DNA of 64,000 nucleotides, from NCBI GenBank assembly GCA_964424775.1, contig CAYRJZ010000003.1, positions 124,127 through 188,126 of the forward strand, given 5' to 3'. The stretch comes from an uncultured Gammaproteobacteria bacterium (GTDB lineage: Bacteria; Patescibacteriota; Microgenomatia; Levybacterales; UBA12049). The notes under the pieces were generated by a model that did no database searches, was not told the origin of the DNA, and was given only the letters and a program-made list of their open reading frames with translations. Position numbers and translations under genes: made by a program. Below, piece by piece: positions 18,690 to 55,110 of this stretch (positions within the stretch are counted from its first letter, which is position 1; each line of letters starts with the position of its first letter).

Positions 18690-18696
18690 TGTGATG

Positions 18697-19357: not shown

Positions 19358-19367
19358 AATACAGATC

Positions 19368-19646: not shown

Positions 19647-19685
19647 GACTGCCTCCGGTAAAGCTACAGCAGGGTCTCCCTGCCA

Positions 19686-19701
19686 GTTCCTGACGAGGAA
19701 C
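19686..19701. promoter_or_regulatory. type-1 leader palindrome GTTCCT-GACG-AGGAAC followed by GAAAAA (upstream of ORF E)
   Basis: Third copy of the TTCCT-N4-AGGAA[C/G]AAAAA element. Confidence 0.45.
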
Positions 19702-19794
19702 GAAAAATATCGATAAATCGAGACTTATCGCTAATCATCAAAAACTCCTGTGCCGGAGCCCAAGAAAGTTCGTGGAATTTGCCGTAGTCGACGG

Positions 19795-20169: not shown

Positions 20170-20240
20170 GGTAATTCTCCTCAGCAGATACAAACCCACG
20201 ACCTGTGGGTTAGCCTTTGACGAAGACCACGAAAAAAGCC
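20170..20240. promoter_or_regulatory. type-2 conserved leader (GGTCTTCGTCAAAGGC ... CCCACAGGTCGTGGG hairpin)
   Basis: Aligned to the other type-2 leaders. Confidence 0.45.
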
Positions 20241-20866
20241 TAGCCTCAAATGAAGCTAGACTCACCTTCGTGCTCTCCGTCATGAAAGCACACATCATTA
20301 TTCATTCCGTTGCCCCGCGAGGTCGTTAAGAACACTGATATTTGTTAACGTTCCATCTCTCCGTCTGGTAGGAATCTGAAGGCGACGCCTTTCGTCTGAT
20401 AGATCAGGGCAGAAAATCGACCTTCAGGTTCCTACCTGTTTCGTACTTTGCCGAAGCTTTCGCTTCAATTAGCCTCGAAACAATGTAGGCACTTGTCTTG
20501 GGTTCTTGAGCCATCTTCGTCGTCTTTTGGACGCAATGTCCGAAGATAACGTATCAAGCTTTCAGTACGTTGTAGCATTAGCCAACGATAAATTCAGTTC
20601 CGCAATTTGACCTTTGTATGACAGAGGATGCCGAACTGACTTTATCTGTGGCTATGTGAAGAAAATGAGGCTAAAACACAAAAAAACCAGCCCTGATACT
20701 AGATCTGAGGAATATCGGCTTACAGGCTCCGATATACTCGTGGCTGGTGAAGTAACTATTTAATTTGTTAAAGATGCAATCGAACTGACGATTACAACAC
20801 ACATCCTATCATACTATGGGACTTTTGTCAAGGGGGTACATAGCCTTGATCTGAGGCTAAAAATGA

Positions 20867-42146: not shown

Positions 42147-42668
42147 ATGAAAAAAATAATTACTTCTTTTAAAAAAGCTAATATTACTCTCACAATTTTT
42201 ATTCTGCTCAGTTTGGGGACTCTCGTTGTCGGGACAAAAGTTGTACTAGCGTACCTACCAACTATTCAATATTTTTTGAATATTAATTCGAAGCCTTCAT
42301 CACAAGAAGCGAGAATTTTAGAAAAAATGGGGAAAAAGCTCTCCGAAACTGAAAATAAAAATCTTTTTAATGATGTAAAAAACTCAAGTAGAAATTATCC
42401 CTACCTAGAAATTGCTAAATGTATACCTCGTCCTCGCATTATGCACATTGAAGCTAATACTTACCTTTTGGTTCACAATGCTGATAATCAAATCAGACAT
42501 ATATCTTTTGGCCCTGATAAAAAGTATGCTATTTACCCCGGTGAAACAAAAGGAATTCTTTTGAACTTTTTCCCACATATCCCAGCATATATTGCTTATG
42601 GCTGCGACTCTCATCCAAACGCAGTCGGAATTATTTACGCAACATCTCCCATTTCAATATTACAGTAG
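42147..42668 (+). CDS. membrane-anchored/secreted cupredoxin-like small protein (copy A)
   Basis: N-terminal TM or signal. ANTYLLVHNADNQIRH and YGCDSHPNAVGII align to amicyanin/plastocyanin TVxWxNxDxxxHN and YxCTPHPFMRG. The Cys and both His are retained; the axial Met is replaced. Confidence 0.5.
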   Translation: MKKIITSFKKANITLTIFILLSLGTLVVGTKVVLAYLPTIQYFLNINSKPSSQEARILEKMGKKLSETENKNLFNDVKNSSRNYPYLEIAKCIPRPRIMHIEANTYLLVHNADNQIRHISFGPDKKYAIYPGETKGILLNFFPHIPAYIAYGCDSHPNAVGIIYATSPISILQ

Positions 42669-43835
42669 AGAGCTGCATGAACTATTGAGATAATCTTTAG
42701 GTACTTTTGAACAAAGTTGAGTTAGCTCAGATAGATTTAATACGTAAGCTTTGAACTGGCGTTGAAGCATATCATAACATGCTGCAGGAGCGTCTTCTGG
42801 CAATGAATCACATAACTTAAATGGCAAAACCCTATCCCCCATGGAAAAGAATGAATTTGCAATACTTATGACACACTGACTCTTCCATCCAACTGGCATT
42901 CTGTCACATGAGATATACACCTTCTCCAAATTTCCATTCACCATAGGAACAATTTGACGAGCGACAGAATCAAAACATGTCTCTCTATACTCAATATTCT
43001 TTACCTCTGAGCACATTTTACCGATACCTACCAAATCACCTGGCCTTATATCTTTAAACACCATTTGTGGTTGATTGGACCAGCATGCTTTTCGATATTT
43101 TTCATCAATACGTGAGTCATAACATGGATAGGTAGGATCGTCCATTTTTATCCACTTATCAGGAGATGGCTGACCATTATTGTGAACCGCCCAATTGTTC
43201 TCCATAAATGCGCCGTCATAACAATTATAAGCAGTGAAATCTTTTGATAATGTTGCAACTGTATCGCAGTCTTTCAATGCTTGAGGTAAATTCGCATAGT
43301 CTCGCCACGCCAAAAGACCATGACCAATTGCATGTGAGCATTGAGTGGCTGTTGCCTCACTAATATTTTGACACTCTTTCATTATTGAGTCGAGCTGGTC
43401 CATGCCATGTTCTCCAATGGAACGAATGAGAAACCCATGATAACAAGAAGAAAGGAAATAATCTTTACAATAGATCATCCCTTTTTCTTTAAACTTTTCG
43501 TACAGCCAGTCACCGGCAGTATGATTGAGAAGATGTGCTGTCCCATCAAAAGGAATTCCTGAATGCTGTAACTCCTCTTGTGCCTGGACTGGTCCTACCC
43601 GCTCCATAAGCTGACGATACAGTGTCTCTTTAACCTTCATCACCTGGGTTTCTTTTATGCCTTGAATTTCTTTTGCATATGCAGAACTTACTGGAGTTGA
43701 CTGAGGCTTACTGGATGGGAAAAAAGACTTAACTATAAAACCGATAAGGACAATATTAATGACAATAAGAAGACTTACAGCTGCGAGTCTTTTCCCTCTC
43801 TTTTTTTTTAAAATTGCTGCAAGTGATTTATACAT
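42660..43835 (-). CDS. membrane-anchored Cys-pair repeat protein (8 x C-x7-14-C)
   Basis: N-terminal TM. Eight units, each C-x(7-14)-C followed by an aromatic-Gly/Ala-hydrophobic stretch. Paralogous to the C-terminal domain of 43863..45227. Confidence 0.55.
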   Translation of the reverse strand: MYKSLAAILKKKRGKRLAAVSLLIVINIVLIGFIVKSFFPSSKPQSTPVSSAYAKEIQGIKETQVMKVKETLYRQLMERVGPVQAQEELQHSGIPFDGTAHLLNHTAGDWLYEKFKEKGMIYCKDYFLSSCYHGFLIRSIGEHGMDQLDSIMKECQNISEATATQCSHAIGHGLLAWRDYANLPQALKDCDTVATLSKDFTAYNCYDGAFMENNWAVHNNGQPSPDKWIKMDDPTYPCYDSRIDEKYRKACWSNQPQMVFKDIRPGDLVGIGKMCSEVKNIEYRETCFDSVARQIVPMVNGNLEKVYISCDRMPVGWKSQCVISIANSFFSMGDRVLPFKLCDSLPEDAPAACYDMLQRQFKAYVLNLSELTQLCSKVPKDYLNSSCSSLL

Positions 43836-43862
43836 GTCCTATCCCATGTTATTATAACTCTA

Positions 43863-45227
43863 ATGCGGATTAAAATAAAAAAGCATCTTCTACTCCAAGC
43901 ACTCATCGCTATTACTTTTATAAATGTTCTTGTCATTTCTTTTCTGCTCATTAATCCACTAAAAGAACAAGTTATTGTCATGAATAAGGATGGATTTTCG
44001 CCTGATACACTTCGGGTAGCTCAAAATACCAAAGTCGTTTTTGTCAATAAAGACTCAACAGACAGATGGCCGGCAAGTAATATTCATCCAACACACGATG
44101 AGTACCCTGAATTTGATCCTCAACGACCTTTAAGACCATATGAGGAGTGGGAATTTTATCCTGAAAAAATTGGTACCTGGCAATTTCATGATCATCTCCT
44201 TCCTCATAAAAAAGGAACAATTATCGTTACTTCACCCTCCTTTATTCAGCAATTTTTTCAAAGATTTCAGAACAAACCTGCAAAAAAAAGTCTCGCTAAT
44301 CGTAAAAATGATCTCAATATAAAAAATAATGAACAAAATACACAAACATATAATCAAATGAGAGAAATTGCAAAAAATGAAGGGACTCAAGCTGTCTGGC
44401 AATTCGTCCTCACGACATATGGAGACCAAGATGGTACTCAAGGATCTATTCATGACATTGCTCACTTTGCGGGCAAACTCATTTATGAGAAAGATGGACT
44501 CTCAGGCATTTCTATCTGTACTCCTGTCTTTGCATTTGGCTGTTACCATGGACTCCTTGATACTGCATTTTCCAAAAATCTCGACCAGCTAGATGAAGCT
44601 GAAAAAGCATGCGCTACACTTGGGGGGAATAAATCGGGTCCATACAATGCCTGTGTTCACGGTATAGGTCATGGAGTTGCTAGTTATCATAAATCTAAAG
44701 ACCTTAAGGCTGCTCTGTCTTCCTGTGAAAAAATGGTAAAAGAGGCACAGTACTCGTGTTTCGACGGTGTCTTCATGGAATTTGACCGTGAAGCTCCAAG
44801 TTCATACTATAAAAAAGATGATCCCCTCTCTCCTTGCAACACTCTTGACGTTAAATACCAATATCCGTGTGGTCGCAATCAAGTAAGTGTCATGACCAAC
44901 CGTCACAAATTATCTTTTAACGAAATTGTAAAAGTATGTGCAGCATCTTCACAAAGAGACCTGAAAAATGCATGTTTTGTCGCACTGGGATTTCAAACTG
45001 TCTATCAGTCCGTCGGTGATACAGAAAAAATAAAAAGTATGTGTCTATCACCCAAAAATAATGACTTTGCTAGCCAATGTCTTTCAGCCGCAGCGGGCGA
45101 ACTCATGTTTCAAAATATGGATAACTGGCAAAATAAATATCTTGAGCTTTGTAACGCATTGTCCGGAGAAAACAATCAAAAATGTCTCGATTATACGAAT
45201 ATGATAAGAAAAGAATATAATCTGTAA
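43863..45227 (+). CDS. membrane-anchored fusion protein: N-terminal cupredoxin-like domain + C-terminal Cys-pair repeat domain
   Basis: N-terminal TM. KVVFVNKDSTDRWPASNIH and WQFHDHLLPHKKGTIIV align to the cupredoxin strands, with Asp in place of the ligand Cys. C-terminal 7 x C-x(8-14)-C units homologous to 42660..43835. Confidence 0.6.
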   Translation: MRIKIKKHLLLQALIAITFINVLVISFLLINPLKEQVIVMNKDGFSPDTLRVAQNTKVVFVNKDSTDRWPASNIHPTHDEYPEFDPQRPLRPYEEWEFYPEKIGTWQFHDHLLPHKKGTIIVTSPSFIQQFFQRFQNKPAKKSLANRKNDLNIKNNEQNTQTYNQMREIAKNEGTQAVWQFVLTTYGDQDGTQGSIHDIAHFAGKLIYEKDGLSGISICTPVFAFGCYHGLLDTAFSKNLDQLDEAEKACATLGGNKSGPYNACVHGIGHGVASYHKSKDLKAALSSCEKMVKEAQYSCFDGVFMEFDREAPSSYYKKDDPLSPCNTLDVKYQYPCGRNQVSVMTNRHKLSFNEIVKVCAASSQRDLKNACFVALGFQTVYQSVGDTEKIKSMCLSPKNNDFASQCLSAAAGELMFQNMDNWQNKYLELCNALSGENNQKCLDYTNMIRKEYNL

Positions 45228-45462
45228 TACTACTTGATATATTTTTCTCTTAACTTTACGATTAAGTTATGTCTTCTTCATTTTCTAACCTGATTCATAC
45301 AGAAGTAAAATCACATTTTCTTTTTGAAAGCTTAATTTATACTCAAATAATACTTTAATCCTACAAAATTATTTAACTCTAGGATAACTACGAGTTAGGT
45401 TTTTGCCCAAAATTTTTGATACTTTTGAACTTAATTGTCATTTTTTCTTACATATTTTTACC

Positions 45463-45491
45463 TTGACATTAAAAAACAGCTCTGATATTAT
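45463..45491 (+). promoter_or_regulatory. sigma-70-like promoter TTGACA-N17-TATTAT upstream of the secreted-protein module
   Basis: Perfect -35 (45463..45468), 17-nt spacer, near-consensus -10 (45486..45491), in an AT-rich 300-bp intergenic region. The downstream gene ATG is at 45534. Confidence 0.45.
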
Positions 45492-45533
45492 AAGATGCAA
45501 GGATATTGATATAGTATATCTTTATCATTGTAT

Positions 45534-46631
45534 ATGTCAGAAAGAGACAGTTCATATAATTCTCCTCTTCAGGAAGCTTTTTCCCAACGTCTTTCCCGAC
45601 GAAAATTTATCCGTCAAAGTGCACTCGCCTTAGGTTCTCTAGCTGCGGGAACACTTCTTAGAACACATGAATCATCTGCAGCAAATGCATTTGATGGAGG
45701 TGTAGAAGATGCAGTGCCAATCTACAATCTTGATAGACTTTTTAATGGAGAAATAAAAAGACCTGAAGATTTGAAGCATTTCTTGCAAACTAGGTTAATC
45801 CCACCTGATGCTAGGCTAGCGGAGAGAGCTCACACACCAATTAATGATTTCACCTTAAATCCTGATAAAGAACTTTTTGCAAATCTTGAAGGATATAAAA
45901 GTCCTAAAAATAGACTCGATAAAGCTGTTCTTAAATTTTTTGCATTAGCAGAAGGAGTACGTAGTGATACTGAAACAATGGCTGAAATGGAAATAGAAAC
46001 AGTTGAGGATAGACTTGCTACTCCTGTAGGTGAAAGAGAACCCTATGCAGGTCTTCCAGAAGCAGTGCCAGAGGAAAGAATTCTTGAATTACTTGCAGAT
46101 CCTGATTATCGTATTCCACTCTTTGCATATAAAGAAGGAGAGATTGATCCAAAAAAGTATGAAAAGTTCGATATTGATCCACATGTTGGAATTGAAATTG
46201 AATTGCTTGATGATAGACCAGAGAGAAAACCTATGATTGGATTATACGCTAACTATGGATTTACCCCCACTGTCATTGAACATCAGGTAATTCAGGACGG
46301 GGAACAAGATACAAGATATGGTTTACGCATTGGGTTATTTTCAAATGACTATAAATTTCCAGGTAGTCCAGCTCAATCTCCTCAAGAAGAAGCAGATGGT
46401 TTATATTCAATTTTACTTTACCAATACATGGAATCATCCATATATGTAACCCCTCCACTTATGCAATTTTATAATAGTACAAACGGAGAAAATACATATT
46501 GGGCTAAAAGACAAGAATCTCAGGGTTACGTTTTCTATCCAGATATTATAGAGCAAATTGGTGGTCCTTTAAATGAAAATGGAAGTTTCAATTCAGCTCC
46601 TGTACTTCATATTGATTCACCAAACCTCTAA
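45534..46631 (+). CDS. Tat-signal exported protein of unknown function (module copy 1)
   Basis: Start placed at the ATG (MSERD...). The ORF track uses an upstream TTG. Twin-arginine motif SRRKFIRQSALALGSLAAG. Paralog of 50627..51706. Confidence 0.6.
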   Translation: MSERDSSYNSPLQEAFSQRLSRRKFIRQSALALGSLAAGTLLRTHESSAANAFDGGVEDAVPIYNLDRLFNGEIKRPEDLKHFLQTRLIPPDARLAERAHTPINDFTLNPDKELFANLEGYKSPKNRLDKAVLKFFALAEGVRSDTETMAEMEIETVEDRLATPVGEREPYAGLPEAVPEERILELLADPDYRIPLFAYKEGEIDPKKYEKFDIDPHVGIEIELLDDRPERKPMIGLYANYGFTPTVIEHQVIQDGEQDTRYGLRIGLFSNDYKFPGSPAQSPQEEADGLYSILLYQYMESSIYVTPPLMQFYNSTNGENTYWAKRQESQGYVFYPDIIEQIGGPLNENGSFNSAPVLHIDSPNL

Positions 46632-46676
46632 TTAGCTTCTTGCATACAACTAAAAAAAATATAGAATAGAATAGGT

Positions 46677-47219
46677 ATGCAATTAAAGAGAAAATACCTA
46701 TATTTATTAATTTTTATTCTATTTCTAATTTCAATAATTTTAATTGGATTAGTTTATCTCAAGAACAATACGTTGATACATATTAAAAACTCTGATCAAA
46801 ATATCACTGTATTTTATAAAAAAACAGAATATCTTAATAAATTATTAACTTCTTGGGGGATAGTAACTAATAATAAAAACTCAATTCAAAAAATAAACAT
46901 TACTTTCACTTCCCAACCTCAAGCAGAGTATGTTGTCAAAGATATTGTTACAAAAGAGACATATCAGAGTTTAAGTTGGAATGAAACAGACAATGAATAT
47001 AATATTATAATTAACTTAGAAAGTTCTTATCATAATAAACTATCAGAAAGAGATCTATCATTAAATGCAAATGGATCTGTAGTTAAGGCTTTGTACTATT
47101 TATCACATTCTGAAAATGCAAAATCTCAAAAAATACCCACAGAACTTTTAAAGGTTTATAGTGACTTTACAAAAATCAAAGAACTTCCTTTTACTGCAAT
47201 TTTCAATAAGAGTAAATGA
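46677..47219 (+). CDS. N-terminally membrane-anchored hypothetical protein (module copy 1)
   Basis: TM helix YLYLLIFILFLISIILIGLVYL. Paralog of 51762..52298. Stop overlaps the start of the next gene (ATGA). Confidence 0.55.
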   Translation: MQLKRKYLYLLIFILFLISIILIGLVYLKNNTLIHIKNSDQNITVFYKKTEYLNKLLTSWGIVTNNKNSIQKINITFTSQPQAEYVVKDIVTKETYQSLSWNETDNEYNIIINLESSYHNKLSERDLSLNANGSVVKALYYLSHSENAKSQKIPTELLKVYSDFTKIKELPFTAIFNKSK

Positions 47220-50071
47220 AATTAAATTCACTAATATATAAACTTTCTTTAGTAATATTATTTCTACTATTTTCTTTTGTTTTAAATTCTAAATCAACAT
47301 ATGCTCAGTCCTGTAGTGGTTGGGTTGTATGTTGTTTGGCTTGGCAAGAAGGGGGATGCTTCGTAAATGGGACTGGAACTGACATAGCTAATCCTCCTGT
47401 CCCATGTAATCCTCTTCAAAATCCTGGAAATTGTACGTGCAATGAGGGATCATGTTACTCTGCAACGAGTACCTATTGCGATGCCTCCTGCGGAGCTGGG
47501 GCATGTGATGCCAGTATTCCAGGGCATGTAAGTAATTGTTCCTGGTCTGGAGGATATGGCTCAAATCCTGGATACGGTTCAAATCCATCATATTCTTATC
47601 CATACCCATATCCTTACCCCTATCCATATCCTTATCCCTATCCCTATCCTGCGCCTGCTGATTTTCATGTTCAGTCTTTCTATACTGCAGATGTAGATGG
47701 CAATAGGAGTTATAACTTCGCTGAAGGGGAAAATATTTACTGGTATGCTCGAATTCGCAATGATGGCGAACTTTATCCAGAATCATCTAATGATCGAATT
47801 TATACTAACTTCTATCAAAACCAACCAAATCCAATGGGCATCACTTCCAATCACACCTCTATTTATATCGACACGAACGACAACTGGGCTCCTGAAACAA
47901 ATAGAACATTTGCTTCCTATCCTGACGGAGAAAATAGAGGTTCATATGAAGGAGCATTTAGCTTTGAGCGAATTGGCGGCCAAACGAATAATGGACTTCC
48001 CCTCTATGCGAGAATCTTTGTAGATCACGACAATAGAGTTGATGAGCCATCAGGACATAATACCGATGAAAATCAAGCTACTTTCCGCTATACCGTTGGA
48101 GATACACCCGATCTCCAAATAACAGATTTCCATCTTCGAGATAGTAATGGTGAAGAGACAAATCGCTTTGCCCCAGGGCAAAGAATATACACCAAGCTCA
48201 CCTACTACAATTATGGTGGAACAACTGCTTTTAACAGAGACCCAGATGATCCATATATTTATACAGCTTTTTATAGAAGTCGGGAAAACCCTGTTGCAGA
48301 AGACACTGCTTCTAGTGCCAACATGTATATTCGTGGAAATGAACTTGATCCAAATGACGGTGACACCTTTTATTGCAAACCTGATCCAGGAAATAAATGT
48401 AGTCGGTTTACTGCTGATGATTACTGGACAGTAGATGAGGCAGGAAGATATACTGCTCGCGCATATGTTAACTACAATGATGATGTTGTTGAAGGGCCGA
48501 AAAGTAACAATCAAGCAACGTATGAATATTCCGTAGGCCGAGTAATATCAGGTTACGTATACAGTGATACAAACGAGAGTGGAACGAAAGCAACAAGTGA
48601 ACCAGGACTAGCCAACATTCGAGTAACTCTCTACAGGAAAGCTGCAAATGGACAATACACAACTCGTATAGGGTCTACACGAACTGATAATGATGGATTT
48701 TATGACTTTGATGCGCTTGAGGATAATGATTATCGTGTATTTATAGACACTCCAGACCAACCAGCAAATTATGCATTTACTACACCAACAGAGTATGAAG
48801 TAACGTTACCTCCAAATACCAGACGTGATTTTGGACTTCTCGAAAATACCTTTACGATTTCAGGGAATATATTCTTAGATCAAAATACCAATCGTGTCAA
48901 AGATGGAGAAGAAGCAAATGCGACAAATATAAGTAGCACGAGCATCACGATTGATGGTTCAAATACCGGTGTTACTCTTAATAGTGACGGAAGTTATATT
49001 ATCCAAAATGTAAGTTATGGTACACACACTATTCGATTTAGCCCACTTCCATCTGGTTATTTTATTACCCATCCTCGCTCAACTACTCCTCCCTCATATA
49101 CGGTAACAGTTGGTAATTCTTGTGCACCCTCCCCACTCAATCCAGGTGGAACATGTAGCGATAGAAATATCATCAATCTTAATTTTGGAATAAAAGAAGG
49201 AGAGCCATGGATCCAGGCATATGGACTTGATATCCGATTTGATGGAGGAATAAATAATCCTCTTCCTGCTTCACCTAATGCAGCTTGTGGAGGTGCGTAT
49301 ACCATTATTGCCGGAAGTGGTAGCACACCTGGGGTTGGATATACGGGTAGTGTTAGTCCAGACTTTGGACTTGGTGCAATTTCAGCATTAAATAGAATTG
49401 TTGGAGGAACAACATACCCCGAAGTATTTACCCCTCTCTCAACAAATGTAATTCGAACATCATATGGGTATTTAAAGAGTACAATGAGGCAGTCTAATAT
49501 TTCATCCTCTCCTCTTCCAAATGTCTGTTCTGGTGGGATATCAGACTGTAGCCTGACCGGCAGTCTTCCAAGTGGTATTTATGAAGCATCAACGAGCGCA
49601 ACACTTAATGGATTTACCGTTGGAGCTGACCGGGATATAATTCTTATCATCAATGGCGACATTCTTATAAGAGGTGCTATTGATGTTCCAACAACTTCCA
49701 CACTTACCGTTATATCTTCTGGAAGTATTCGTGTTGCAAGCACTGTGGGAACAACAGCCTCTTGCCCTGCTCCCAGCAATGGAACGACAGCAAATGGAAC
49801 ACTTGAAGGATTTTATAGCGCAGATCTCAACTTCACACTTGATACCGGTGCTGACTGTTCAGCTAGTACATCAGATCTCCAGCTCAATATGCAAGGGAGT
49901 GTTGTAGTGAATGCGGCAAAAAGAGGTGGAGACTTTATTAACAATCGCACACTTTGTACCGACAATACTCAATATCCATCCTTTACCATTCGAGAAAGAC
50001 CTGACTTTATCTTGAATGCACCAGATATTATCAAAACTCAAAGCTTTATTTGGCAGGAGGTCGCACCATAA
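47216..50071 (+). CDS. large secreted surface protein: N-terminal Cys-rich domain, YP-repeat linker, CnaB/SdrD-B-like (carboxypeptidase-regulatory-like) domains (module copy 1)
   Basis: Signal peptide. Cys-rich QSCSGWVVCCLAWQEGGCFVNGTG...CTCNEGSCY...CDASCGAGAC. 9 x YP repeats. Segments SGYVYSDTNESG...IRVTLYRK...NDGFYDFDALEDNDYRVFID typical of the Cna-B/SdrD-B fold. Conserved C-terminus IIKTQSFIWQEVAP. Confidence 0.7.
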   Translation: MKLNSLIYKLSLVILFLLFSFVLNSKSTYAQSCSGWVVCCLAWQEGGCFVNGTGTDIANPPVPCNPLQNPGNCTCNEGSCYSATSTYCDASCGAGACDASIPGHVSNCSWSGGYGSNPGYGSNPSYSYPYPYPYPYPYPYPYPYPAPADFHVQSFYTADVDGNRSYNFAEGENIYWYARIRNDGELYPESSNDRIYTNFYQNQPNPMGITSNHTSIYIDTNDNWAPETNRTFASYPDGENRGSYEGAFSFERIGGQTNNGLPLYARIFVDHDNRVDEPSGHNTDENQATFRYTVGDTPDLQITDFHLRDSNGEETNRFAPGQRIYTKLTYYNYGGTTAFNRDPDDPYIYTAFYRSRENPVAEDTASSANMYIRGNELDPNDGDTFYCKPDPGNKCSRFTADDYWTVDEAGRYTARAYVNYNDDVVEGPKSNNQATYEYSVGRVISGYVYSDTNESGTKATSEPGLANIRVTLYRKAANGQYTTRIGSTRTDNDGFYDFDALEDNDYRVFIDTPDQPANYAFTTPTEYEVTLPPNTRRDFGLLENTFTISGNIFLDQNTNRVKDGEEANATNISSTSITIDGSNTGVTLNSDGSYIIQNVSYGTHTIRFSPLPSGYFITHPRSTTPPSYTVTVGNSCAPSPLNPGGTCSDRNIINLNFGIKEGEPWIQAYGLDIRFDGGINNPLPASPNAACGGAYTIIAGSGSTPGVGYTGSVSPDFGLGAISALNRIVGGTTYPEVFTPLSTNVIRTSYGYLKSTMRQSNISSSPLPNVCSGGISDCSLTGSLPSGIYEASTSATLNGFTVGADRDIILIINGDILIRGAIDVPTTSTLTVISSGSIRVASTVGTTASCPAPSNGTTANGTLEGFYSADLNFTLDTGADCSASTSDLQLNMQGSVVVNAAKRGGDFINNRTLCTDNTQYPSFTIRERPDFILNAPDIIKTQSFIWQEVAP
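47597..47650 (+). repeat. 9 x (TAT CCN) Tyr-Pro dipeptide repeat linker
   Basis: tat cca tac cca tat cct tac ccc ... seen directly. The paralog carries a poly-Pro linker at the equivalent place. Confidence 0.7.
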
Positions 50072-50077
50072 AGATGT

Positions 50078-50578
50078 ATGAAGACAGTAACTCCACTTTT
50101 AACTGCTACTCGCTCTCACTTGTTATTAAGTAGTTTTTTTCTCCTCCTAATTGCTTTATTCATTGCCACTTTTTTTTCTTATCGTAGTTTTAGTCCAACT
50201 ATAAATAAATTTCTGGGACTCCATAAAGATCAACAAATCGTAGAACATATTAATAAATTCACATCACTCAAAACACCCGAACAATACCAAGAATATAATA
50301 AGCAAACAGAAAAAATTGCTGTTTCAGCGCCTTATCTGGATATTACATCCTGCTCACCTTCACCTCAAATTCTCAAAGTTAAGGCAAATACTCTACTTGT
50401 TGTTAAAAATAGTTCAACAAAAGAACATCTGATTACATTAAATGAAAAGAGTGCATATTCTATTGGACCACATAAAAACACCTCAATTCTTCTTAATACA
50501 TACCCTGTTGTTCCAGGATCGTATTTGTATCATTGTGACCAAAATTTAAATGTTGGAATGATATTTGTGCAACTGTAA
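50078..50578 (+). CDS. membrane-anchored/secreted cupredoxin-like small protein (copy B)
   Basis: Homologous to 42147..42668. YLYHCDQNLNVGMIFV keeps the Cys and the axial Met, but the second His is Asn. Confidence 0.5.
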   Translation: MKTVTPLLTATRSHLLLSSFFLLLIALFIATFFSYRSFSPTINKFLGLHKDQQIVEHINKFTSLKTPEQYQEYNKQTEKIAVSAPYLDITSCSPSPQILKVKANTLLVVKNSSTKEHLITLNEKSAYSIGPHKNTSILLNTYPVVPGSYLYHCDQNLNVGMIFVQL

Positions 50579-50626
50579 CAGATATCATTGACAGAGAAAA
50601 ACCACAGCAGTATAGTGCAAACAAGT

Positions 50627-51706
50627 ATGTCAGAAAGAGAAACACCGAGGAGAATTTCATCAGCAATTAGCGAAGGGAAAATGACGAGACGTCGATTTCT
50701 CCAAGGTGCACTTGTAGGCGCTTCCATGCTTCTGCCTGATACAATGCTACCCCACACTACCACTGCTGAAGACACACCCACTGATGAACAAGTTCTCAAT
50801 CTGGATCTGTTATTTAAAGGCGAAATCAATCGACCTGAAGATATGAAATATTTTCTGCAGACTCGACTCCTTCCTCCGGATGAAAGACTTGCAAAAAGAA
50901 GTCAAACTCCCATAACAGGATTGACATTAAATCCAGATAAAGAGATTTTTGAGAATTTGGAAGGATATAAAAGTCCTAAAAATAGACTCGATAAAGCAGT
51001 CTTAAAAGCTATTGCTCTTCTTGAAAGTGTGCGAGGTGACACAGAGGCAATGACAGATATGAAAATTGAGACTGTTAATGATAGGCTTGCCAGTCCAGTT
51101 GGTCAACGTGAAACAACGGGTGCTTATCTACCCGAACCAGTACCAGAAGAAAGAATTCTTGAACTGATGAGTGATCCGGAGTATCGTCTTCCCATCATGG
51201 GATATCCTGAGGGAGAATTTGATCCTGATAAATACAAACGATTTGATATTGATCCTCATCTTGGAATTGAAATTGAAATCCTAGATGATAGACCAGAACA
51301 CAAACCGAAAGTTGGCATTTTTGGTTCGTATGGCTTTACCCCAACTGTTGTAGAACATGCTGTCAGACATCAGAACAAAACAGAACAAAGATATGGACTA
51401 AGAATAGGTCTTTTCGCCAATGACACCAGATTTATTGGAAGTGATTTTTTTGACCCCCAGGGAGAAGCTGATGCACTCTACTCAATGCTATTAAATCAAT
51501 ATATTGAAAGAATATCATTCATTACTCCTCCTCTCATGACATATTACAGTAGTGTTAACGAGCAAAATCCTTACTGGACAAAATTAATGCAGTCTCCAGG
51601 ATTTGTCTATTATCCTGAGATTGCTACACTAACAAATGGCCCACACAGTGCAGACAATAGACATACAACAGCTCCTGTACTCCATATTGTCTCTCCTACC
51701 TTATAA
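50627..51706 (+). CDS. Tat-signal exported protein of unknown function (module copy 2)
   Basis: Start at the ATG (MSERETPRR...), with the same tatgtcagaaagaga context as copy 1. Twin-arginine motif TRRRFLQGALVGASM. About 55-60% identity to copy 1 by eye. Confidence 0.6.
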   Translation: MSERETPRRISSAISEGKMTRRRFLQGALVGASMLLPDTMLPHTTTAEDTPTDEQVLNLDLLFKGEINRPEDMKYFLQTRLLPPDERLAKRSQTPITGLTLNPDKEIFENLEGYKSPKNRLDKAVLKAIALLESVRGDTEAMTDMKIETVNDRLASPVGQRETTGAYLPEPVPEERILELMSDPEYRLPIMGYPEGEFDPDKYKRFDIDPHLGIEIEILDDRPEHKPKVGIFGSYGFTPTVVEHAVRHQNKTEQRYGLRIGLFANDTRFIGSDFFDPQGEADALYSMLLNQYIERISFITPPLMTYYSSVNEQNPYWTKLMQSPGFVYYPEIATLTNGPHSADNRHTTAPVLHIVSPTL

Positions 51707-51761
51707 ATAGTGTCGCTCATCATTGACACCTGCGAAAAGAAAAAAATAGAATGAATAAGAT

Positions 51762-52298
51762 ATGCTTATTAAGAAAAAATATATTTATCTTCTTCTTTCC
51801 TTTTTCTTATTAAGTATTTCTTTGATCTTAGGAATATTCATTTCAAGAAAAAATACATTTATTCAACTTCATGATAAAGATGTTAACTTCTCTTTTTCGT
51901 ATACTGAAACTGATCTTTTTAAAAGTTATCTTCAGCAATGGAAGATAAGAGAAAATGGAAAGAGTTCTCCTACACGAGTAAGTATTACATTTACGACTTC
52001 GCCACAAGCCAGTTATGTTATGCGTGATTATGTCACAAAAGAAATGATTCAAAGTTATTCATGGAAAAAAAATAAGAATTCTATCATCATTGTTATTCAT
52101 CTTGATCCCAAATATCACACAAAACTAAATGAACGTGATCTTTCATTAAGTGCAAACGCAGCAGTACTCAAAGCTCTCTATTTTCTCTCTCACCCAGAAC
52201 AAACAAAAGTGGATGTCATTCCCAAAGAACTTATGGATGTCTATTCAAAATTTCAAAAAGAAAAAATAATCCCAATACAAGTTGGAAAAAATAATTAA
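51762..52298 (+). CDS. N-terminally membrane-anchored hypothetical protein (module copy 2)
   Basis: Paralog of 46677..47219. Confidence 0.55.
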   Translation: MLIKKKYIYLLLSFFLLSISLILGIFISRKNTFIQLHDKDVNFSFSYTETDLFKSYLQQWKIRENGKSSPTRVSITFTTSPQASYVMRDYVTKEMIQSYSWKKNKNSIIIVIHLDPKYHTKLNERDLSLSANAAVLKALYFLSHPEQTKVDVIPKELMDVYSKFQKEKIIPIQVGKNN

Positions 52299-52299
52299 T

Positions 52300-55110
52300 A
52301 TGAAGAGATACCTATCATTTATTTCTCTTTTTTCTATTATCATTTTTATTCCTCTAATCCTTTCCCCTTCTCGCATTTCTGCACAAACATGCAATGGATA
52401 TGTCGTCTGTTGTCTCGCTTGGATGGAGGGGGGCTGTTTTGTCAATGGAACGGGAACTTCAATTTCCAATCCACCTATATCATGCAATCCAGCTATTCGT
52501 TCTGACTGTACCTGCAATTCGGGATCTTGTTATTCAGCAACGACGACTTATTGTGATGCAGCTTGTGGTGTTGGAAATTGTGATGGAAATATTCCAGGCC
52601 ATATTAGTGCATGTTACTGGTCGGGTGGTGGTGATACGGGAGGTGGAGATCCACCTCCACCTCCACCTCCACCTCCACCACCACCTCCGCCACCACCTCC
52701 ACCTTCTGATTTGGTGGTAAATGATTTTTATGTCACAGATGCAAACGGCGGAAAAAGCTACAACTTTGCTGAAGGTGAAAGAATTTACTGGTATACGAGA
52801 GTAACGAATGATGGAACTTATTACTACCAGACAGAACCAGGACGTGTTGAGATGAATCTTTATCAAAATCAGCAAAGTATTCCGGGTGTTACTCCGGATA
52901 ACACGTCTATATACATTTCTACTGACGGAACGACCTGGGAGCCTGGGTTGACTCGAGCATTTGGCTCGTATGCAGATGGTACCAATAGACAAGATTTTGA
53001 AAATGCATATAGTTTTACAAGGACTGGTGGCCAAACAAATGAAGGCAAACCTCTCTTCGCAAGACTCGTTGTTGATCCGGCTGACGAGATCCCATCATAT
53101 AGAGATGAAACAAGAAATAACAATCATGCTGTCTTCAGATACACAGTTGGAGATACTCCAGATTTAACTATCACTGACTTTGAACTGAGAGATAGTGATG
53201 GAAATCCCAAAACAAAATTTAATCCAGGACAACGAATTTATCCCAAATTTACCTATTACAACTATGGAGGAACTACAGCCTTCTCTCGCGATATAAATGA
53301 TCCACACATTTATTCTGTAATTTATAGTGACAAAGAAAATTCAGTTGCTATTGGCACACAAAGTGATGTCGATATATCAATTCAAGCACCAGAACTTGAT
53401 AAAGATGACGGAGATGCATTCTGGTGTGTCCCCTCCCCTTCCAATAAATGTGAGATGTTTCGTGATAAAACATATTGGCAAATGAATACACCTGGACGAT
53501 ATGTTGCTCGTGTTTTTGTTAACTATGATAACAATGTCGTTGAAGGAGGTAATCGCACCAACAACCAAATGACTATTGAGTATTCTGTAGGAAGAATTAT
53601 ATCTGGATATGTTTATCTTGATGCAAATGAAAGTGGTGGGAATAAAGGATCAACTGAGGATGGAATTTCTGGAGTTCGGGTAACACTCTATCGAAAAGCT
53701 AGTGATGGAACATACAGCCGACGAATTGGATCAACTCGTACTAATAATGAAGGTTTTTATGAATTTGATGCACTTGAAGATAATGATTATAGAGTATTTA
53801 TTGACGACCCCGACCGCCCTGAAAATTATACGTTCACTACAGCAACAGAATACCGTGTTACCGTTCCACCAAATATAAGGCGCGACTTTGGACTTCTGGA
53901 AGATAATTACACAATCTCTGGGAATACTTTTATTGACGCGAATGGAAATAAAATTAAAGAGACAGAAGAAGAACTTTTCACTGATGCTCCATCCGGAAGT
54001 ATTCAAGTTGATGGATCCACTTCAAATGTCTTGCTACAAAATGGGGTTTATACAATCTCCAAACTTTCTCGTGGACAACATATTGTCCGCTTCACGGGAC
54101 TTCCTCAAGGATATTCTATGACACATCCGCTCGTTACTATTCCACCATCATTTACCGTCACAGTTGGAAGCAGTTGTACCCCATCATCCTCAACGCCTGG
54201 TGGTACATGCACTGATGCTGGTAATATCGACAATCTCAATTTCGGATTTAAACAAGGAGAGCCCTGGATTCAAATCTATGGCCTTGATATTCGATTTGAT
54301 AACGCAATTTCAAATCCAGTTCCTTCATCACCTAATGCAACTTGTGGTGGCGCATATACTCTTGCAGTTGGTAATACAGGAACTCATGGTGTACTGTATA
54401 CAGGAAATGCTCCTTCTTCTAGTGGACTTGGAAATATATCAGAAAATAATTGGGTAGTTGGCGGAACACAATTTCCTGAACTTTTCTCTCCTCTTTCAAA
54501 TAACATTATCAAGACGTCTTATGGATATGTTCAATCAGTTCTTAAACAATCTAATATTACTCCAACAGATCTCACATCAATATGCGAAAATCTCGCTGAC
54601 TGTTCACTCCCCACAACATTAGAAAATGGAGTTTATCATGCAGAAAAAGATCTTCTGCTTCGCGCTTTTACTGCATCACCAAATAGAGATTTAGTGCTTC
54701 TCATCAAGGGTGATCTCCTTATAACAGGACCAATTAATATTCCTACTTCATCAACTTTCACTGTTATTACATCAGGAAGTATCAGAGTTGATAGTACAGT
54801 TGGAAGTACAGCTTCTTGTCCGGCTCCTGAGGCAGGAAGAGTTGAAGGATTTTACAGTGCAGACTCCAACTTTACTCTCGAGTCAGCGTCAGATTGTACC
54901 CTCAACTCCCCTGATCTTCAATTGAATATGGAAGGAAGTATTGTTGTAAATGCAGGTAAAAAAGGTGGCAATTTTATTAACAAAAGAGATTTATGCACGA
55001 GTAATTCAAGCTATCCTGTATTCACTATAAAAGGAAGACCAGATTTCGTCCTGAACGCTCCGGATATTATCAAAACTCAAAGTTTTATTTGGCAAGAAGT
55101 CGCTCCATAG
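52300..55110 (+). CDS. large secreted surface protein, paralog of 47216..50071 with poly-Pro linker (module copy 2)
   Basis: Start moved to MKRYLSF (ATG at 52300, directly after the upstream stop), giving a signal peptide parallel to copy 1. Same Cys-rich N-domain, CnaB-like domains and C-terminal IIKTQSFIWQEVAP. Confidence 0.7.
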   Translation: MKRYLSFISLFSIIIFIPLILSPSRISAQTCNGYVVCCLAWMEGGCFVNGTGTSISNPPISCNPAIRSDCTCNSGSCYSATTTYCDAACGVGNCDGNIPGHISACYWSGGGDTGGGDPPPPPPPPPPPPPPPPPPSDLVVNDFYVTDANGGKSYNFAEGERIYWYTRVTNDGTYYYQTEPGRVEMNLYQNQQSIPGVTPDNTSIYISTDGTTWEPGLTRAFGSYADGTNRQDFENAYSFTRTGGQTNEGKPLFARLVVDPADEIPSYRDETRNNNHAVFRYTVGDTPDLTITDFELRDSDGNPKTKFNPGQRIYPKFTYYNYGGTTAFSRDINDPHIYSVIYSDKENSVAIGTQSDVDISIQAPELDKDDGDAFWCVPSPSNKCEMFRDKTYWQMNTPGRYVARVFVNYDNNVVEGGNRTNNQMTIEYSVGRIISGYVYLDANESGGNKGSTEDGISGVRVTLYRKASDGTYSRRIGSTRTNNEGFYEFDALEDNDYRVFIDDPDRPENYTFTTATEYRVTVPPNIRRDFGLLEDNYTISGNTFIDANGNKIKETEEELFTDAPSGSIQVDGSTSNVLLQNGVYTISKLSRGQHIVRFTGLPQGYSMTHPLVTIPPSFTVTVGSSCTPSSSTPGGTCTDAGNIDNLNFGFKQGEPWIQIYGLDIRFDNAISNPVPSSPNATCGGAYTLAVGNTGTHGVLYTGNAPSSSGLGNISENNWVVGGTQFPELFSPLSNNIIKTSYGYVQSVLKQSNITPTDLTSICENLADCSLPTTLENGVYHAEKDLLLRAFTASPNRDLVLLIKGDLLITGPINIPTSSTFTVITSGSIRVDSTVGSTASCPAPEAGRVEGFYSADSNFTLESASDCTLNSPDLQLNMEGSIVVNAGKKGGNFINKRDLCTSNSSYPVFTIKGRPDFVLNAPDIIKTQSFIWQEVAP
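52651..52704 (+). repeat. poly-proline tract (18 consecutive Pro codons)
   Basis: cca cct cca cct ... seen directly. Occupies the position of the YP repeat in the paralog. Confidence 0.7.

What the first reader, a model, noticed from the sequence alone, without database searches (positions are those of the whole stretch)
42147..50578. Three cupredoxin-like domains with progressively degenerate type-1 copper ligands
Copy A (42147) retains the ligand pattern H...C-x2-H, with the axial Met replaced (YGCDSHPNAVGII). Copy B (50078) retains Cys and Met but has Asn for the second His (YHCDQNLNVGM). The N-terminal domain of 43863..45227 has Asp in place of Cys but is His-rich (FHDHLLPH). All three align to the amicyanin/plastocyanin strand pattern TVxWxNxDxxxHN ... 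YxYxCxPHxxM. Either these are copper sites with non-canonical ligation, or the fold has been recruited for a non-redox binding role next to the surface giants.
Basis: inference. Interest (0 to 1): 0.55.

Follow-up and report, generated by a model that had tools for sequence, protein, structure and literature searches.

The report
Three remodelled cupredoxin domains, two families
The three domains are real cupredoxin folds, but they belong to two separately conserved families of non-blue cupredoxins that are encoded with, or fused to, an undescribed histidine- and cysteine-rich helical domain next to giant surface proteins of a CPR-type bacterium.

Summary
All three proteins are real cupredoxin-fold domains. 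The evidence is Pfam, profile hits to solved structures, and AlphaFold2 models (pLDDT 91-94) matched by Foldseek. They are not a series of decaying type-1 sites; they fall into two distinct, conserved families.

**Family 1 (protein C, 43863-45227).** Relatives occur in at least 220 species-level genomes (CPR, DPANN, some Actinobacteria and Chloroflexi). Asp sits at the type-1 Cys position in 103 of 103 close homologs and 87 of 88 genome-scan homologs. It lies inside an invariant H-D-H whose best solved-structure matches are multicopper-oxidase copper motifs. A unique invariant loop, WPAS[ND]xHPTH, accompanies it. The domain is fused to a Cys-rich helical domain ("CHR") with five invariant His.

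**Family 2 (A at 42147, B at 50078; 394 cluster representatives).** The type-1 Cys is invariant, as is a second Cys at the position of plastocyanin Leu12 / amicyanin Met28. The second His (present in about 3 of 147) and the axial Met are not conserved. A-type genes sit next to CHR-only genes in every informative locus.

**Best reading.** C carries a His/Asp non-blue metal site. A and B carry a remodelled two-Cys site, either a disulfide or a thiolate site. Both serve as partners of CHR metalloproteins in a cell-surface gene cluster. Ligand geometry could not be measured.

The parts
42147..42668 (+). Protein A, 173 aa. It has an N-terminal membrane anchor (residues ~10-38), a helical stalk, and a cupredoxin-like domain (residues ~82-166, nt 42390-42644). 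Key residues: C92 (nt 42420-42422), R117/H118 (nt 42495-42500), C153 (nt 42603-42605), D154 and H156 (nt 42612-42614).
   Evidence: ORF. Hydrophobic segment. AF2 model pLDDT 94.1 with 7 strands. Foldseek best matches are 4hcf (TMt 0.67-0.70), FtrB 8vuk (0.71), the EfeO Cup domain and 5fc9. Family profile and column counts.
42660..43835 (-). R391, 391 aa. It has a membrane anchor plus a stand-alone Cys-rich helical (CHR) domain. It is convergent with A and overlaps it by 9 nt. It is a paralog of the C-terminal domain of C.
   Evidence: BLASTP against C: 28% identity over 276 aa, E 2e-26. Alignment A7 shows shared invariant residues H-x3-H, C-x-H-G, C-x-H-x2-G-H, G-x2-M-E and the Cys pairs. No Pfam, NCBIfam or PDB hit.
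43863..45227 (+). Protein C, 454 aa. It has a membrane anchor (~7-34), a cupredoxin domain (residues 34-123, nt 43962-44231), a low-confidence linker (~124-155), and a CHR domain (~190-454, nt 44430-45224). Key residues: H75 (nt 44085), H78 (44094), D85, H109-D110-H111 (nt 44187-44195), H115 (44205). CHR residues: H197, H201, H229, H266, H270, E306 and 14 Cys.
   Evidence: Pfam PF13473 above threshold. 619 homologs. Invariant columns. AF2 pLDDT 91.4, pTM 0.85. Foldseek: 5fc9 TMt 0.80, plastocyanin 0.82. D110 aligns on amicyanin Cys92.
45528..46631 (+). T367, a 367-aa protein with a twin-arginine export signal. First gene of cassette 1.
   Evidence: TIGR01409 at 18.1 bits against a cut-off of 16.7. 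56% identical to T372.
46677..47219 (+). S180, a 180-aa membrane-anchored protein of cassette 1.
   Evidence: 47% identical to S178.
47216..50071 (+). G951, a 951-aa secreted 'surface giant'. It has a Cys-rich N-terminus, a (YP)n linker, and SdrD_B, CARDB and prealbumin-like domains.
   Evidence: Pfam SdrD_B E 1.6e-16. Sequence.
50078..50578 (+). Protein B, 166 aa. It is a membrane-anchored cupredoxin-like paralog of A (domain residues ~80-166, nt 50315-50575). It lies 7 nt after G951 and 10 nt before T372. Key residues: C92 (nt 50351), H117 (50426), C153 (50534), N156 (50543), M161 (50558).
   Evidence: BLASTP against A, E 2e-19. Pfam PF13473 at 19.5 bits, below threshold. A-family HMM E 2e-38. 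Alignment columns.
50588..55110 (+). Cassette 2: T372 (50588-51706), S178 (51762-52298) and G942 (52282-55110). It is a duplicate of cassette 1.
   Evidence: 56%, 47% and 57% identity to T367, S180 and G951. The close relatives L001 and L003 carry only one cassette and no B copy.

Best explanation
**Overall.** The window encodes two different kinds of remodelled, non-blue cupredoxin. Both are exported and membrane-anchored. Both work with a histidine- and cysteine-rich helical (CHR) domain within a cell-surface gene cluster.

**(1) The N-terminal domain of protein C.**
- It belongs to a widespread family in which the type-1 Cys is always Asp.
- That Asp sits inside an invariant H-D-H(-x3-H). 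This matches the copper-binding HxH/HCH strand motif of multicopper oxidases.
- The family also carries a unique invariant loop, WPAS[ND]xHPTH, inserted just after the canonical first-His position.
- Inferred: these His/Asp residues bind copper, or another divalent metal, as a type-2-like non-blue site. That site sits beside, and possibly shares metal with, the five-His/Glu cluster of the fused CHR domain. Together they would form an extracytoplasmic redox or metal-handling protein acting at the cell surface.

**(2) Proteins A and B.**
- They belong to a smaller family of single-domain cupredoxin-like proteins.
- The family keeps the type-1 Cys and usually the first His. It has lost the second His and the Met.
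- It has gained an invariant second Cys at the residue that in plastocyanin and amicyanin (Leu12/Met28) packs on the second His.
- Inferred: the two Cys form a disulfide that locks the former ligand loop. Less likely, they form a Cys2(His) thiolate metal site.
- Inferred: A is the separately encoded cupredoxin-like partner of the CHR-only protein R391, as the N-domain of C is for its own CHR domain.

**Shown versus inferred.** Shown here: fold, family membership, residue conservation, domain fusions and gene linkage. Inferred: metal binding, the disulfide and the function.
For: **Fold.**
- Pfam and profile hits to solved structures.
- AF2 models with Foldseek matches.

**Two families.**
- The HMMs do not cross-hit.
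- hhalign gives E 7.9e-4 and 25% probability. It aligns C153 of A with D110 of C and shows WPASNxHPTH as an insertion.

**C family.**
- H75, P76, H78, D85, H109, D110 and H111 are present in 103 of 103 homologs, and H115 in 102 of 103.
- In the 88 N-domains from the GTDB species genomes whose motif could be parsed, the residue between the two His is Asp in 87, Asn in 1 and never Cys.
- The 32-residue profile GxWxYHDHLxPHxxG finds mainly multicopper oxidases in the PDB, at E 0.004-0.05. Examples: two-domain laccase 'GYWHYHDHV' and 'GAWMYHCHVQSH', and ascorbate oxidase 'GVWAFHCHIEPH'.
- FtrB is a natural cupredoxin with Asp in place of Cys, and it needs that Asp to bind Cu2+ (PMC11966278).
- Canonical type-1 cupredoxin genes lie beside C-family genes in 3 of 79 loci, for example L062 7464-7919.

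**CHR link.**
- Fused as Cup-CHR in protein C.
- Fused as Cup-CHR-CHR in ~790-aa homologs in the protein search (P0007, P0010) and in ORFs of ~800-880 aa at many genome loci.
- Split in L012, which has a 138-aa stand-alone C-type cupredoxin 50% identical to C residues 31-122.
- 47 of 79 loci carry additional CHR-only genes.
- H197, H201, H229, H266 and H270 are invariant across CHR paralogs, and E306 is present in at least 90%.

**A/B family.**
- 394 cluster representatives.
- C92, C153, N111 and G161 are present in 147 of 147.
- The first-His column holds His in 120 of 147 and Arg in 16.
- The C+3 column holds Ser in 65 and His in about 3.
- Only 1 of 147 members has the H..C..H set.
- C92 aligns with amicyanin Met28 and plastocyanin Leu12.
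- A-type genes abut a CHR gene in the window, L001-L003, L004-L006, L011, L012, L043 and L048.

**Disulfide-friendly context.** The CHR domain itself has seven invariant Cys pairs.
Against: - No coordinates of the models were available. The Cys92-Cys153 distance, the clustering of the His/Asp residues and their orientation toward the CHR domain are all untested.
- The multicopper-oxidase similarity rests on a short motif with marginal E-values. The other invariant motif, WPASNxHPTH, has no counterpart in the PDB.
- H115 is conserved only in the Microgenomates subfamily.
- In both families the canonical first-His column alternates with Arg: 64 Arg to 38 His in the C family, and 16 Arg to 120 His in the A family. 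This argues that the position is not an obligatory ligand.
- B is not adjacent to a CHR gene.
- A-type genes accompany C-family genes in only 2-3 of 79 genome loci.
- No copper-handling genes were seen nearby.
- No experimental data exist for either family.
Confidence: 0.5

Rival explanations
1. One reading: three stages of decay of one type-1 copper site. A would still bind copper through His-Cys-His without Met. B would bind through His-Cys-Met. C would have lost the site.
For: - A's ligand loop C-D-S-H-P-N-A-V-G-I has the same length and pattern as C-S-F-H-P-W-R-V-G-L of the N. maritimus cupredoxin 5fc9.
- 5fc9 binds copper with two His and one Cys and has no Met (recalled from memory, not checked).
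- P0140, a family member, has His at all three trigonal positions.
Against: - A has Arg, not His, in the canonical first-His column.
- B's Met is not in the axial column, and B lacks the second His.
- C-x2-H occurs in about 3 of 147 family members, so it is a twig-level novelty and not a remnant.
- C's Asp and flanking His are invariant across phyla, which is the opposite of decay.
- A/B and C are different families.
Confidence: 0.12
2. The two invariant Cys of the A/B family, with the frequent His and Asp, form a thiolate metal site. This could be a Cu(I) site of the Sco/CopZ type. A and B would then be membrane-anchored metallochaperones that load the His-rich centre of the neighbouring CHR proteins.
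For: - C92 sits where the second His ligand would pack.
- His is kept in 82% of members and Asp at C+1 in 86%. That is more than a purely structural disulfide would require.
- The family is tightly linked to genes for His-rich CHR proteins.
- The membrane-anchor architecture is typical of chaperones such as Sco (established knowledge).
Against: - 27 of 147 members lack the His with no compensating change, often carrying Arg instead.
- Two invariant, spatially close Cys in an exported protein are most simply a disulfide. The partner domain carries seven Cys pairs, which implies an oxidising compartment.
- No CxxC or MxCxxC motif is present.
Confidence: 0.22
3. None of the three domains binds metal. 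The cupredoxin fold serves only as a beta-sandwich spacer or adhesion module on the cell surface. The conserved His, Asp and Cys residues would be structural or would contact partners. Ligand-less phytocyanin-like domains are a precedent.
For: - The first-His column alternates with Arg in both families.
- The genes lie among surface and adhesin-like proteins carrying SdrD_B, CARDB and FG-GAP domains.
- No copper-homeostasis genes were seen nearby.
Against: - Five His plus Asp are invariant over CPR, DPANN, Actinobacteria and Chloroflexi homologs at 25-30% overall identity. That is hard to explain structurally.
- The motif matches copper-ligating strands of multicopper oxidases.
- The fusion partner has its own invariant five-His cluster on helices, with i/i+4 spacing.
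Confidence: 0.15

Closest known systems
Amicyanin / plastocyanin (classical type-1 cupredoxins)
   Same: - Same fold: TMt 0.70-0.82 for C and 0.60-0.62 for A.
- Same strand pattern, including the V-x-N-x-D strand and the Y-x-[CD] strand.
- The ligand loop has the same length as in amicyanin.
   Different: - No member of the trio has the full His-Cys-His-Met set.
- C has an invariant Asp for Cys.
- A/B lack the second His and the Met as a family, and add a second Cys.
- All three are membrane-anchored rather than soluble carriers.
Multicopper oxidases, especially two-domain laccases (HxH / HCH motifs)
   Same: C's G-x-W-x-Y-H-D-H-L-x-P-H aligns with 'GYWHYHDHV' and 'GAWMYHCHVQSH' of two-domain laccases and with 'GVWAFHCHIEPH' of ascorbate oxidase. 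In those enzymes the His residues flanking the central residue bind the trinuclear copper cluster (established knowledge).
   Different: - C has a single cupredoxin domain.
- Only one of the four MCO motifs is recognisable. WPASNxHPTH has no MCO or PDB counterpart.
- There is no type-1 Cys.
- The partner domain is helical, not a second cupredoxin.
EfeO (Cup-I domain + M75 helical metal-binding domain) and FtrB (Cup-II)
   Same: - They are among the best structural matches for A (7wgu, and 8vuk at TMt 0.71). EfeO is also a match for C.
- FtrB has Asp where classical cupredoxins have Cys, and it needs that Asp for Cu2+ binding (PMC11966278).
- EfeO shows the same logic of a cupredoxin fused to a helical metal-binding domain, with split forms such as EfeM (PMC9174327).
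   Different: - No M75/HxxE domain was detected (Pfam).
- No EfeU/FtrC permease or EfeB gene is nearby.
- The motifs differ: D-x2-H in FtrB against H-D-H-x3-H here.
- The CHR domain is unrelated to M75 by sequence.
Nmar1307 purple cupredoxin (PDB 5fc9) and B. anthracis Cupredoxin_1 (4hcf)
   Same: - They are the top Foldseek and profile hits for both families.
- 5fc9 shares A's Met-less loop pattern C-x2-H-P-x2-V-G.
   Different: - 5fc9 has the canonical first His. A has Arg there.
- Neither is shown by the data here to have the extra Cys of the A/B family or the H-D-H of C. Only residues 20-94 of 5fc9 and 22-85 of 4hcf were seen in alignments.

Membership tests
Cupredoxin fold (superfamily) | Greek-key beta-sandwich of 7-8 strands that superposes on known cupredoxins. 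| tested here: met
   - C: Foldseek probability 1.00; 5fc9 TMt 0.80, 1bxu 0.82.
- A: 4hcf TMt 0.67-0.70, 8vuk 0.71.
- B: inferred from 32% identity to A and a Pfam hit at E 1e-3. B was not modelled.
Pfam PF13473 Cupredoxin_1 | Score at or above the gathering threshold of 27 bits. | tested here: inconclusive
   C scores 30.4 bits (met). B scores 19.5 bits (not met). A has no hit.
Type-1 (blue) copper protein | Cys thiolate ligand at the end of strand 7. | tested here: not met
   - Met in A and B: C153 is present in 147 of 147 family members.
- Not met in C: D110 is present in 103 of 103 homologs and in 87 of 88 parsed genome-scan N-domains, never Cys.
- So the trio as a whole fails.
Type-1 (blue) copper protein | Two His ligands: one after strand 4 and one at C+2 to C+5 in the loop. 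| tested here: not met
   - A: R117 sits in the first-His column, and H156 is at C+3.
- B: H117 is present but N156 is at C+3.
- A/B family: His at C+3 in about 3 of 147, and any His in the loop in 13 of 147.
- C: Arg/His alternate in the first column (64 to 38), and Leu is at C+3.
Type-1 (blue) copper protein | Axial Met (or Gln/Leu) two residues before the conserved Gly of strand 8. | tested here: not met
   - A has Ala159 in that column.
- B has a one-residue deletion there, and its Met161 lies after the Gly.
- C has a variable residue at position 116 (Met 21, Lys 18, Gln 14, Phe 13).
Multicopper oxidase | At least two cupredoxin domains carrying four HxH-type motifs (eight His) plus a type-1 site. 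| tested here: not met
   C has one cupredoxin domain. Only the H-D-H-x3-H motif resembles the MCO L2/L4 motifs. The other motif has no MCO match.
EfeO | Cup domain followed by an imelysin/M75 domain with HxxE, in an efeUOB operon. | tested here: not met
   No M75 Pfam hit on C or R391. The CHR profile finds nothing in the PDB. No permease or DyP genes are in the window ORF list.
FtrB / Cup-II | D-x2-H at the C-terminal loop plus an E-x-E acidic iron site, in an ftrABCD operon. | tested here: not met
   Structural similarity only (8vuk). A has C-D-S-H and C has H-D-H-x3-H. No ftrA/C/D-like genes were seen.

The most novel reading that the evidence does not exclude
The Cup(H-D-H)-CHR proteins could be a previously unrecognised class of extracytoplasmic copper oxidase found in CPR bacteria, DPANN archaea and a few other phyla.

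- **Proposed metal centre.** The His pairs of a single multicopper-oxidase-like cupredoxin domain (H75/H78 and H109/H111) and the helical His pairs of the disulfide-stapled CHR domain (H197/H201 and H266/H270, plus H229) would together line a multinuclear copper centre. H-x3-H on helices would play the role that H-x-H plays on strands in laccases.
- **Proposed substrate.** The enzyme would oxidatively cross-link or mature the giant, often 13-14% tyrosine, surface proteins encoded next to it. These proteins may be used for envelope building or host attachment.
- **Role of A/B.** The two-Cys A/B proteins would be dedicated accessory or chaperone subunits.
Probability: 0.12. Interest if true: 0.85.

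Novelty: new variant of a known kind. Interest (0 to 1): 0.58.

Why it matters
- **A gap in CPR and DPANN biology.** These organisms have almost no recognised redox or metal biochemistry at their surface. Yet at least 220 species-level genomes carry a strictly conserved His/Asp-substituted cupredoxin fused to an undescribed His/Cys-rich helical domain. These genes are embedded in clusters for giant surface proteins and envelope enzymes.
- **If the metal sites are real.** They would be natural examples of the Cys-to-Asp cupredoxin chemistry known mainly from engineered azurins and from FtrB. They might also be a new way of building a copper centre.
- **Annotation.** The result corrects a tempting misreading. 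'Degenerate ligands' in a single genome can in fact be family-wide, selected patterns.
- **The A/B family.** It has 394 clusters, no Pfam model above threshold, and an invariant Cys pair at the former copper site. No description of it was found in Pfam, NCBIfam or the searchable literature.

Tried and rejected
- **Word-indexed homolog search for A and B.** It found only self plus one relative. The exhaustive profile search was needed.
- **The search for related loci with A-family alignments.** It failed because no stretch was conserved enough. The genome survey was therefore done with the C family only.
- **Model coordinates.** They are not exposed. Cys-Cys and His-cluster geometry could not be measured.
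- **MCO L1/L3 resemblance of H75-P-T-H78.** This was my own recollection. A fragment profile of that motif finds no oxidase in the PDB, so I dropped it as evidence.
- **CHR domain.** No Pfam or NCBIfam hit and no PDB sequence hit. All top 50 Foldseek hits of the full C model fall on the cupredoxin part. It stays unclassified. Resemblances to hemerythrin or type-3 copper His patterns are only recollections and were not tested.
- **Same 'giant' next to the genes everywhere?** Rejected. The Tyr/Pro/Thr-rich ~900-aa proteins of other Microgenomates are not homologous to G951/G942 by tblastn. The window's giants are only 5-7% Tyr.
- **B as a co-duplicated copy of A.** Rejected. The cassette paralogs are 47-57% identical while A and B are 32% identical. 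B is closer to distant family members, at 41% to P0137.
- **Literature.** No paper in the searchable library links cupredoxins to Microgenomates beyond NirK partners in Parcubacteria.
- **GC-rich stretch at 16.8-20.3 kb as rRNA.** Rejected. There are no Rfam hits.
Full report
**What is in the window.**

The region lies downstream of rpsB, tsf, frr and an RseP-type protease gene. The genome is AT-rich (~37% GC). Its closest protein relatives come from Microgenomates-group CPR bacteria.

Gene order:
- A (42147-42668, +, 173 aa).
- R391 (42660-43835, -, 391 aa), convergent with A and overlapping it by 9 nt.
- C (43863-45227, +, 454 aa).
- Cassette 1: T367, with a twin-arginine signal; S180; and the 951-aa G951, which has SdrD_B, CARDB and prealbumin-like domains.
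- B (50078-50578, +, 166 aa).
- Cassette 2, a duplicate of cassette 1: T372, S178 and G942, at 56%, 47% and 57% identity.

A, B, C and R391 each begin with one hydrophobic anchor segment.

**Checking the observation.**

The quoted peptides are present. Evidence that the domains are cupredoxins:
- C residues 34-122 pass the Pfam gathering score for PF13473 Cupredoxin_1 (30.4 vs 27 bits). B scores 19.5 bits (E 1e-3). A scores nothing.
- A and B are paralogs (32% identity, E 2e-19).
- A 103-sequence profile of the C family hits a cupredoxin-bearing copper enzyme of N. maritimus (9cck, E 7e-5) and amicyanins (E 3e-4 to 4e-3). D110 aligns on amicyanin Cys92.
- A 147-sequence profile of the A/B family hits the N. 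maritimus cupredoxin 5fc9 (E 1.4e-3), 9cck, NirK, B. anthracis Cupredoxin_1 (4hcf) and plastocyanins. The family's His and Cys fall on the type-1 His and Cys.
- AlphaFold2 gives confident models: C at pLDDT 91.4 and pTM 0.85, and A at pLDDT 94.1.
- Foldseek matches the C N-domain to 5fc9 (TMt 0.80), plastocyanin 1bxu (0.82), amicyanin (0.70), 4hcf and the EfeO Cup domain.
- Foldseek matches A to 4hcf (0.67-0.70), 9cck, EfeO, FtrB 8vuk (0.71) and nitrosocyanin.

The fold claim is therefore confirmed for A and C, and by homology for B.

A joint MAFFT alignment with amicyanin, plastocyanin and 5fc9 and hhalign fix the equivalences.

| Column | A | B | C |
|---|---|---|---|
| Type-1 Cys | C153 | C153 | D110 |
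| C+3 His | H156 | N156 | L113 |
| Axial Met | A159 | one-residue gap | K116 |
| First His | R117 (H118 is one off) | H117 | R68 |

B's M161 lies after the conserved Gly, not in the axial-Met column.

**The homolog survey: two families, not a series.**

HMMs of the A/B family and of the C N-domain do not hit each other's proteins in the window, even at E<=10. Profile-profile comparison shows only remote relatedness (E 7.9e-4, probability 25%).

*C family.*
- 619 homologs were found at E<=1e-3.
- In 103 aligned members, F60, N62, P70, A71, H75, P76, H78, D85, G104, H109, D110, H111 and V122 are invariant. H115 is present in 102 of 103. Position 116 varies (Met/Lys/Gln/Phe/Arg). Position 68 is Arg in 64 and His in 38.
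- A scan of one genome per GTDB species found relatives in 220 genomes. They include many Microgenomates lineages, Saccharibacteria, Peribacteria, several Parcubacteria lineages, an Aenigmatarchaeota chromosome and other archaeal MAGs. They also include Rubrobacteraceae, Limnocylindrales and Rokubacteria.
- In the 88 N-domains from those loci whose motif could be parsed, WPAS[ND]xHP[T]H and H-D-H persist (Asp 87, Asn 1, Cys 0). H115 is confined to the Microgenomates-type subfamily. A DPANN/Parcubacteria subfamily has H-D-H-L-x-P-G-x-x-M instead.
- A 32-residue profile of the strand carrying H-D-H finds, in the whole PDB, chiefly multicopper oxidases (E 0.004-0.05). It aligns with 'GYWHYHDHV' and 'GAWMYHCHVQSH' of two-domain laccases and with 'GVWAFHCHIEPH' of ascorbate oxidase.
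- By established knowledge, the His residues of these HxH/HCH motifs ligate the trinuclear copper cluster.
- The other invariant motif, WPASNxHPTH, is an insertion relative to classical cupredoxins. It has no counterpart in the PDB.

*A/B family.*
- Word-based searches found almost nothing. An exhaustive profile search found 394 cluster representatives, 50 of them at E<=1e-10.
- In 147 aligned members, C92, N111, C153 and G161 are invariant, and P96 is present in 143.
- The first-His column holds His in 120 and Arg in 16. C+1 is Asp in 127. C+3 is Ser in 65 and His in about 3 (A, its 77% relative P0002, and P0140).
- The position of B's Met holds Ile 37, Met 31, Leu 29 and Phe 18.
- Only P0140 has His-Cys-His.
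- The 27 members without the first His show no compensating change.
- C92 aligns with amicyanin Met28 and plastocyanin Leu12. By established knowledge these residues pack on the solvent-exposed second His ligand. The new Cys therefore sits at the former copper site.

**Link to a second, undescribed domain.**

The C-terminal ~265 residues of C and most of R391 are paralogous (28% identity, E 2e-26). Across C-type, R391-type and distant members the invariant residues are as follows (C numbering):
- H197 and H201.
- H229 and G230.
- C264, H266, G269 and H270.
- C288 and C299.
- G302 and M305, with E306 in at least 90%.
- C325, C336, C359 and C371.

C-type members have 14 invariant Cys in seven closely spaced pairs. 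In the model these His residues lie on helices with i/i+4 spacing. This domain, called CHR here, has no Pfam hit, no NCBIfam hit and no PDB-sequence hit.

Evidence that cupredoxin and CHR belong together:
- They are fused in C.
- They are fused as Cup-CHR-CHR in ~790-aa homologs in the protein search (P0007, P0010) and in ORFs of ~800-880 aa at many genome loci.
- They are split in L012. There a 138-aa stand-alone C-type cupredoxin (50% identical to C residues 31-122, with WPASDIHPTH and FHDH kept) lies beside A-type and CHR genes.
- 47 of 79 genome loci have extra CHR-only genes near the C-type gene, with up to 11 tandem paralogs.

A-type genes abut a CHR gene wherever enough flank exists. 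This holds in the window, L001-L003, L004-L006, L011, L012, L043 and L048. B is the exception. It sits inside the duplicated cassette. The close relatives L001 and L003 have one cassette and no B.

**Surroundings.**
- In relatives with the window's synteny, the order A, R391, C, Tat-signal protein (a weak TAT_signal match in L003 only), small anchor protein and ~910-950-aa giant is kept.
- In 15 of 18 other Microgenomates loci examined, the gene just upstream of the Cup-CHR gene encodes a protein of 810-990 aa. Composition was computed for all of them: 13-14% Tyr, 14-17% Pro, 13-15% Thr and ~3.5% Cys. The one read in full (L009) also has an N-terminal hydrophobic segment and Cys-rich N-terminal repeats.
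- In the two Daviesbacteria loci whose gene tables were read, an R391-type gene and a 77-aa anchor protein lie further upstream, next to glycosyltransferase, PMT_2, PBP1 and VanW genes.
- These giants are not homologous to G951/G942. G951 and G942 are only 5-7% Tyr and have a short (YP)n or poly-Pro linker.
- The association is therefore with 'a giant surface protein', not with one family.
- Three of 79 loci have a canonical type-1 cupredoxin gene beside the C-type gene.

**Interpretation.**

Shown here: the folds, the two families, the conservation patterns, the fusions and the gene linkage.

Inferred for C:
- The invariant His/Asp set at the 'northern' end of the C cupredoxin is a non-blue (type-2-like) metal site, most likely copper.
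- Three things support this. One is the resemblance to copper-ligating MCO strands. Another is the precedent of FtrB, a natural Asp-for-Cys cupredoxin whose D118A mutant loses Cu2+ binding (PMC11966278). The third is the engineered azurin Cys112Asp proteins (my recollection).
- This site would work together with the five-His/Glu centre of the CHR domain.

Inferred for A/B:
- The invariant Cys pair at the old copper site is most simply a disulfide. The proteins are exported and the partner has seven Cys pairs.
- The 82% His and 86% Asp leave room for a Cys2(His) thiolate site.

The architecture parallels EfeO (Cup + helical M75 metal domain, with split EfeM forms; PMC9174327) without being homologous in the helical part.

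Function at the level of substrate is unknown. Oxidative maturation of neighbouring surface proteins is the most interesting possibility. It rests only on gene neighbourhood.

**What could not be done.**

B was not modelled. The library searches found no publication on these families. NCBI names two C-family members 'cupredoxin domain-containing protein'. The domain call on C is therefore not new, but the conserved substitutions, the CHR domain and the A/B family appear undescribed.

**Verdict.**

The 'progressive degeneracy' reading is not. These are new variants of a known kind (non-canonical cupredoxins of the Cup-I/Cup-II sort). They have a moderately high chance of hiding new metallobiochemistry.

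Noticed in passing
window 16800-20300: This stretch is GC-rich (48-55% against ~37% elsewhere). It has no long clean ORF and no Rfam match at gathering score or at E<=0.01. The whole window has no tRNA. The protein-like short ORFs lie on the minus strand (16895-17251, 17931-18536, 18697-19218). It is probably a foreign insert.
   Followed up: partly
window 42660-43835 (-) and 44430-45224 (+): An undescribed Cys-rich helical domain ('CHR') has invariant H-x3-H, C-x-H-G, C-x-H-x2-G-H and G-x2-M-E motifs plus seven Cys pairs. It has no Pfam, NCBIfam or PDB-sequence match. It occurs as tandem arrays of up to 11 paralogs in other genomes, for example L087.
   Followed up: partly
window 45528-50071 and 50588-55110: A three-gene cassette is duplicated in the window at 56%, 47% and 57% identity. 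It consists of a Tat-signal protein, a small anchored protein and a ~950-aa surface protein. The close relatives L001 and L003 have a single copy. Their Tat-protein homologs match T367 only over the first ~40-50 residues, so the mature part appears to have been replaced.
   Followed up: partly
L007 3620-6562, L009 5219-7975, and 13 further loci (L016-L055): In other Microgenomates the gene immediately upstream of the Cup-CHR gene encodes a protein of 810-990 aa. Composition, computed for all 15 loci, is 13-14% Tyr, 14-17% Pro and 13-15% Thr. L009, the one read in full, has an N-terminal hydrophobic segment, Cys-rich N-terminal repeats and long YYTPP-like repeats. In L007 and L009 the neighbouring genes include GT2, PMT_2, PBP1 and VanW.
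   Followed up: partly
window 47216-50071 and 52282-55110: G951 and G942 share a Cys-rich N-terminal module. It is followed by a (YP)10-like run in G951 and a ~20-residue poly-Pro run in G942. SdrD_B, CARDB and prealbumin-like domains come after that.
   Followed up: no
window 42660-42668: The 3' ends of the convergent genes A and R391 overlap by 9 nt. The same tail-to-tail arrangement recurs in L001, L002, L003, L043 and L048.
   Followed up: partly
L015-L054 record titles: Many contigs whose genes are clearly of the Microgenomates/CPR type carry the record title 'uncultured Gammaproteobacteria bacterium' (TPA_asm MAGs). The taxonomic labels look unreliable.
   Followed up: no
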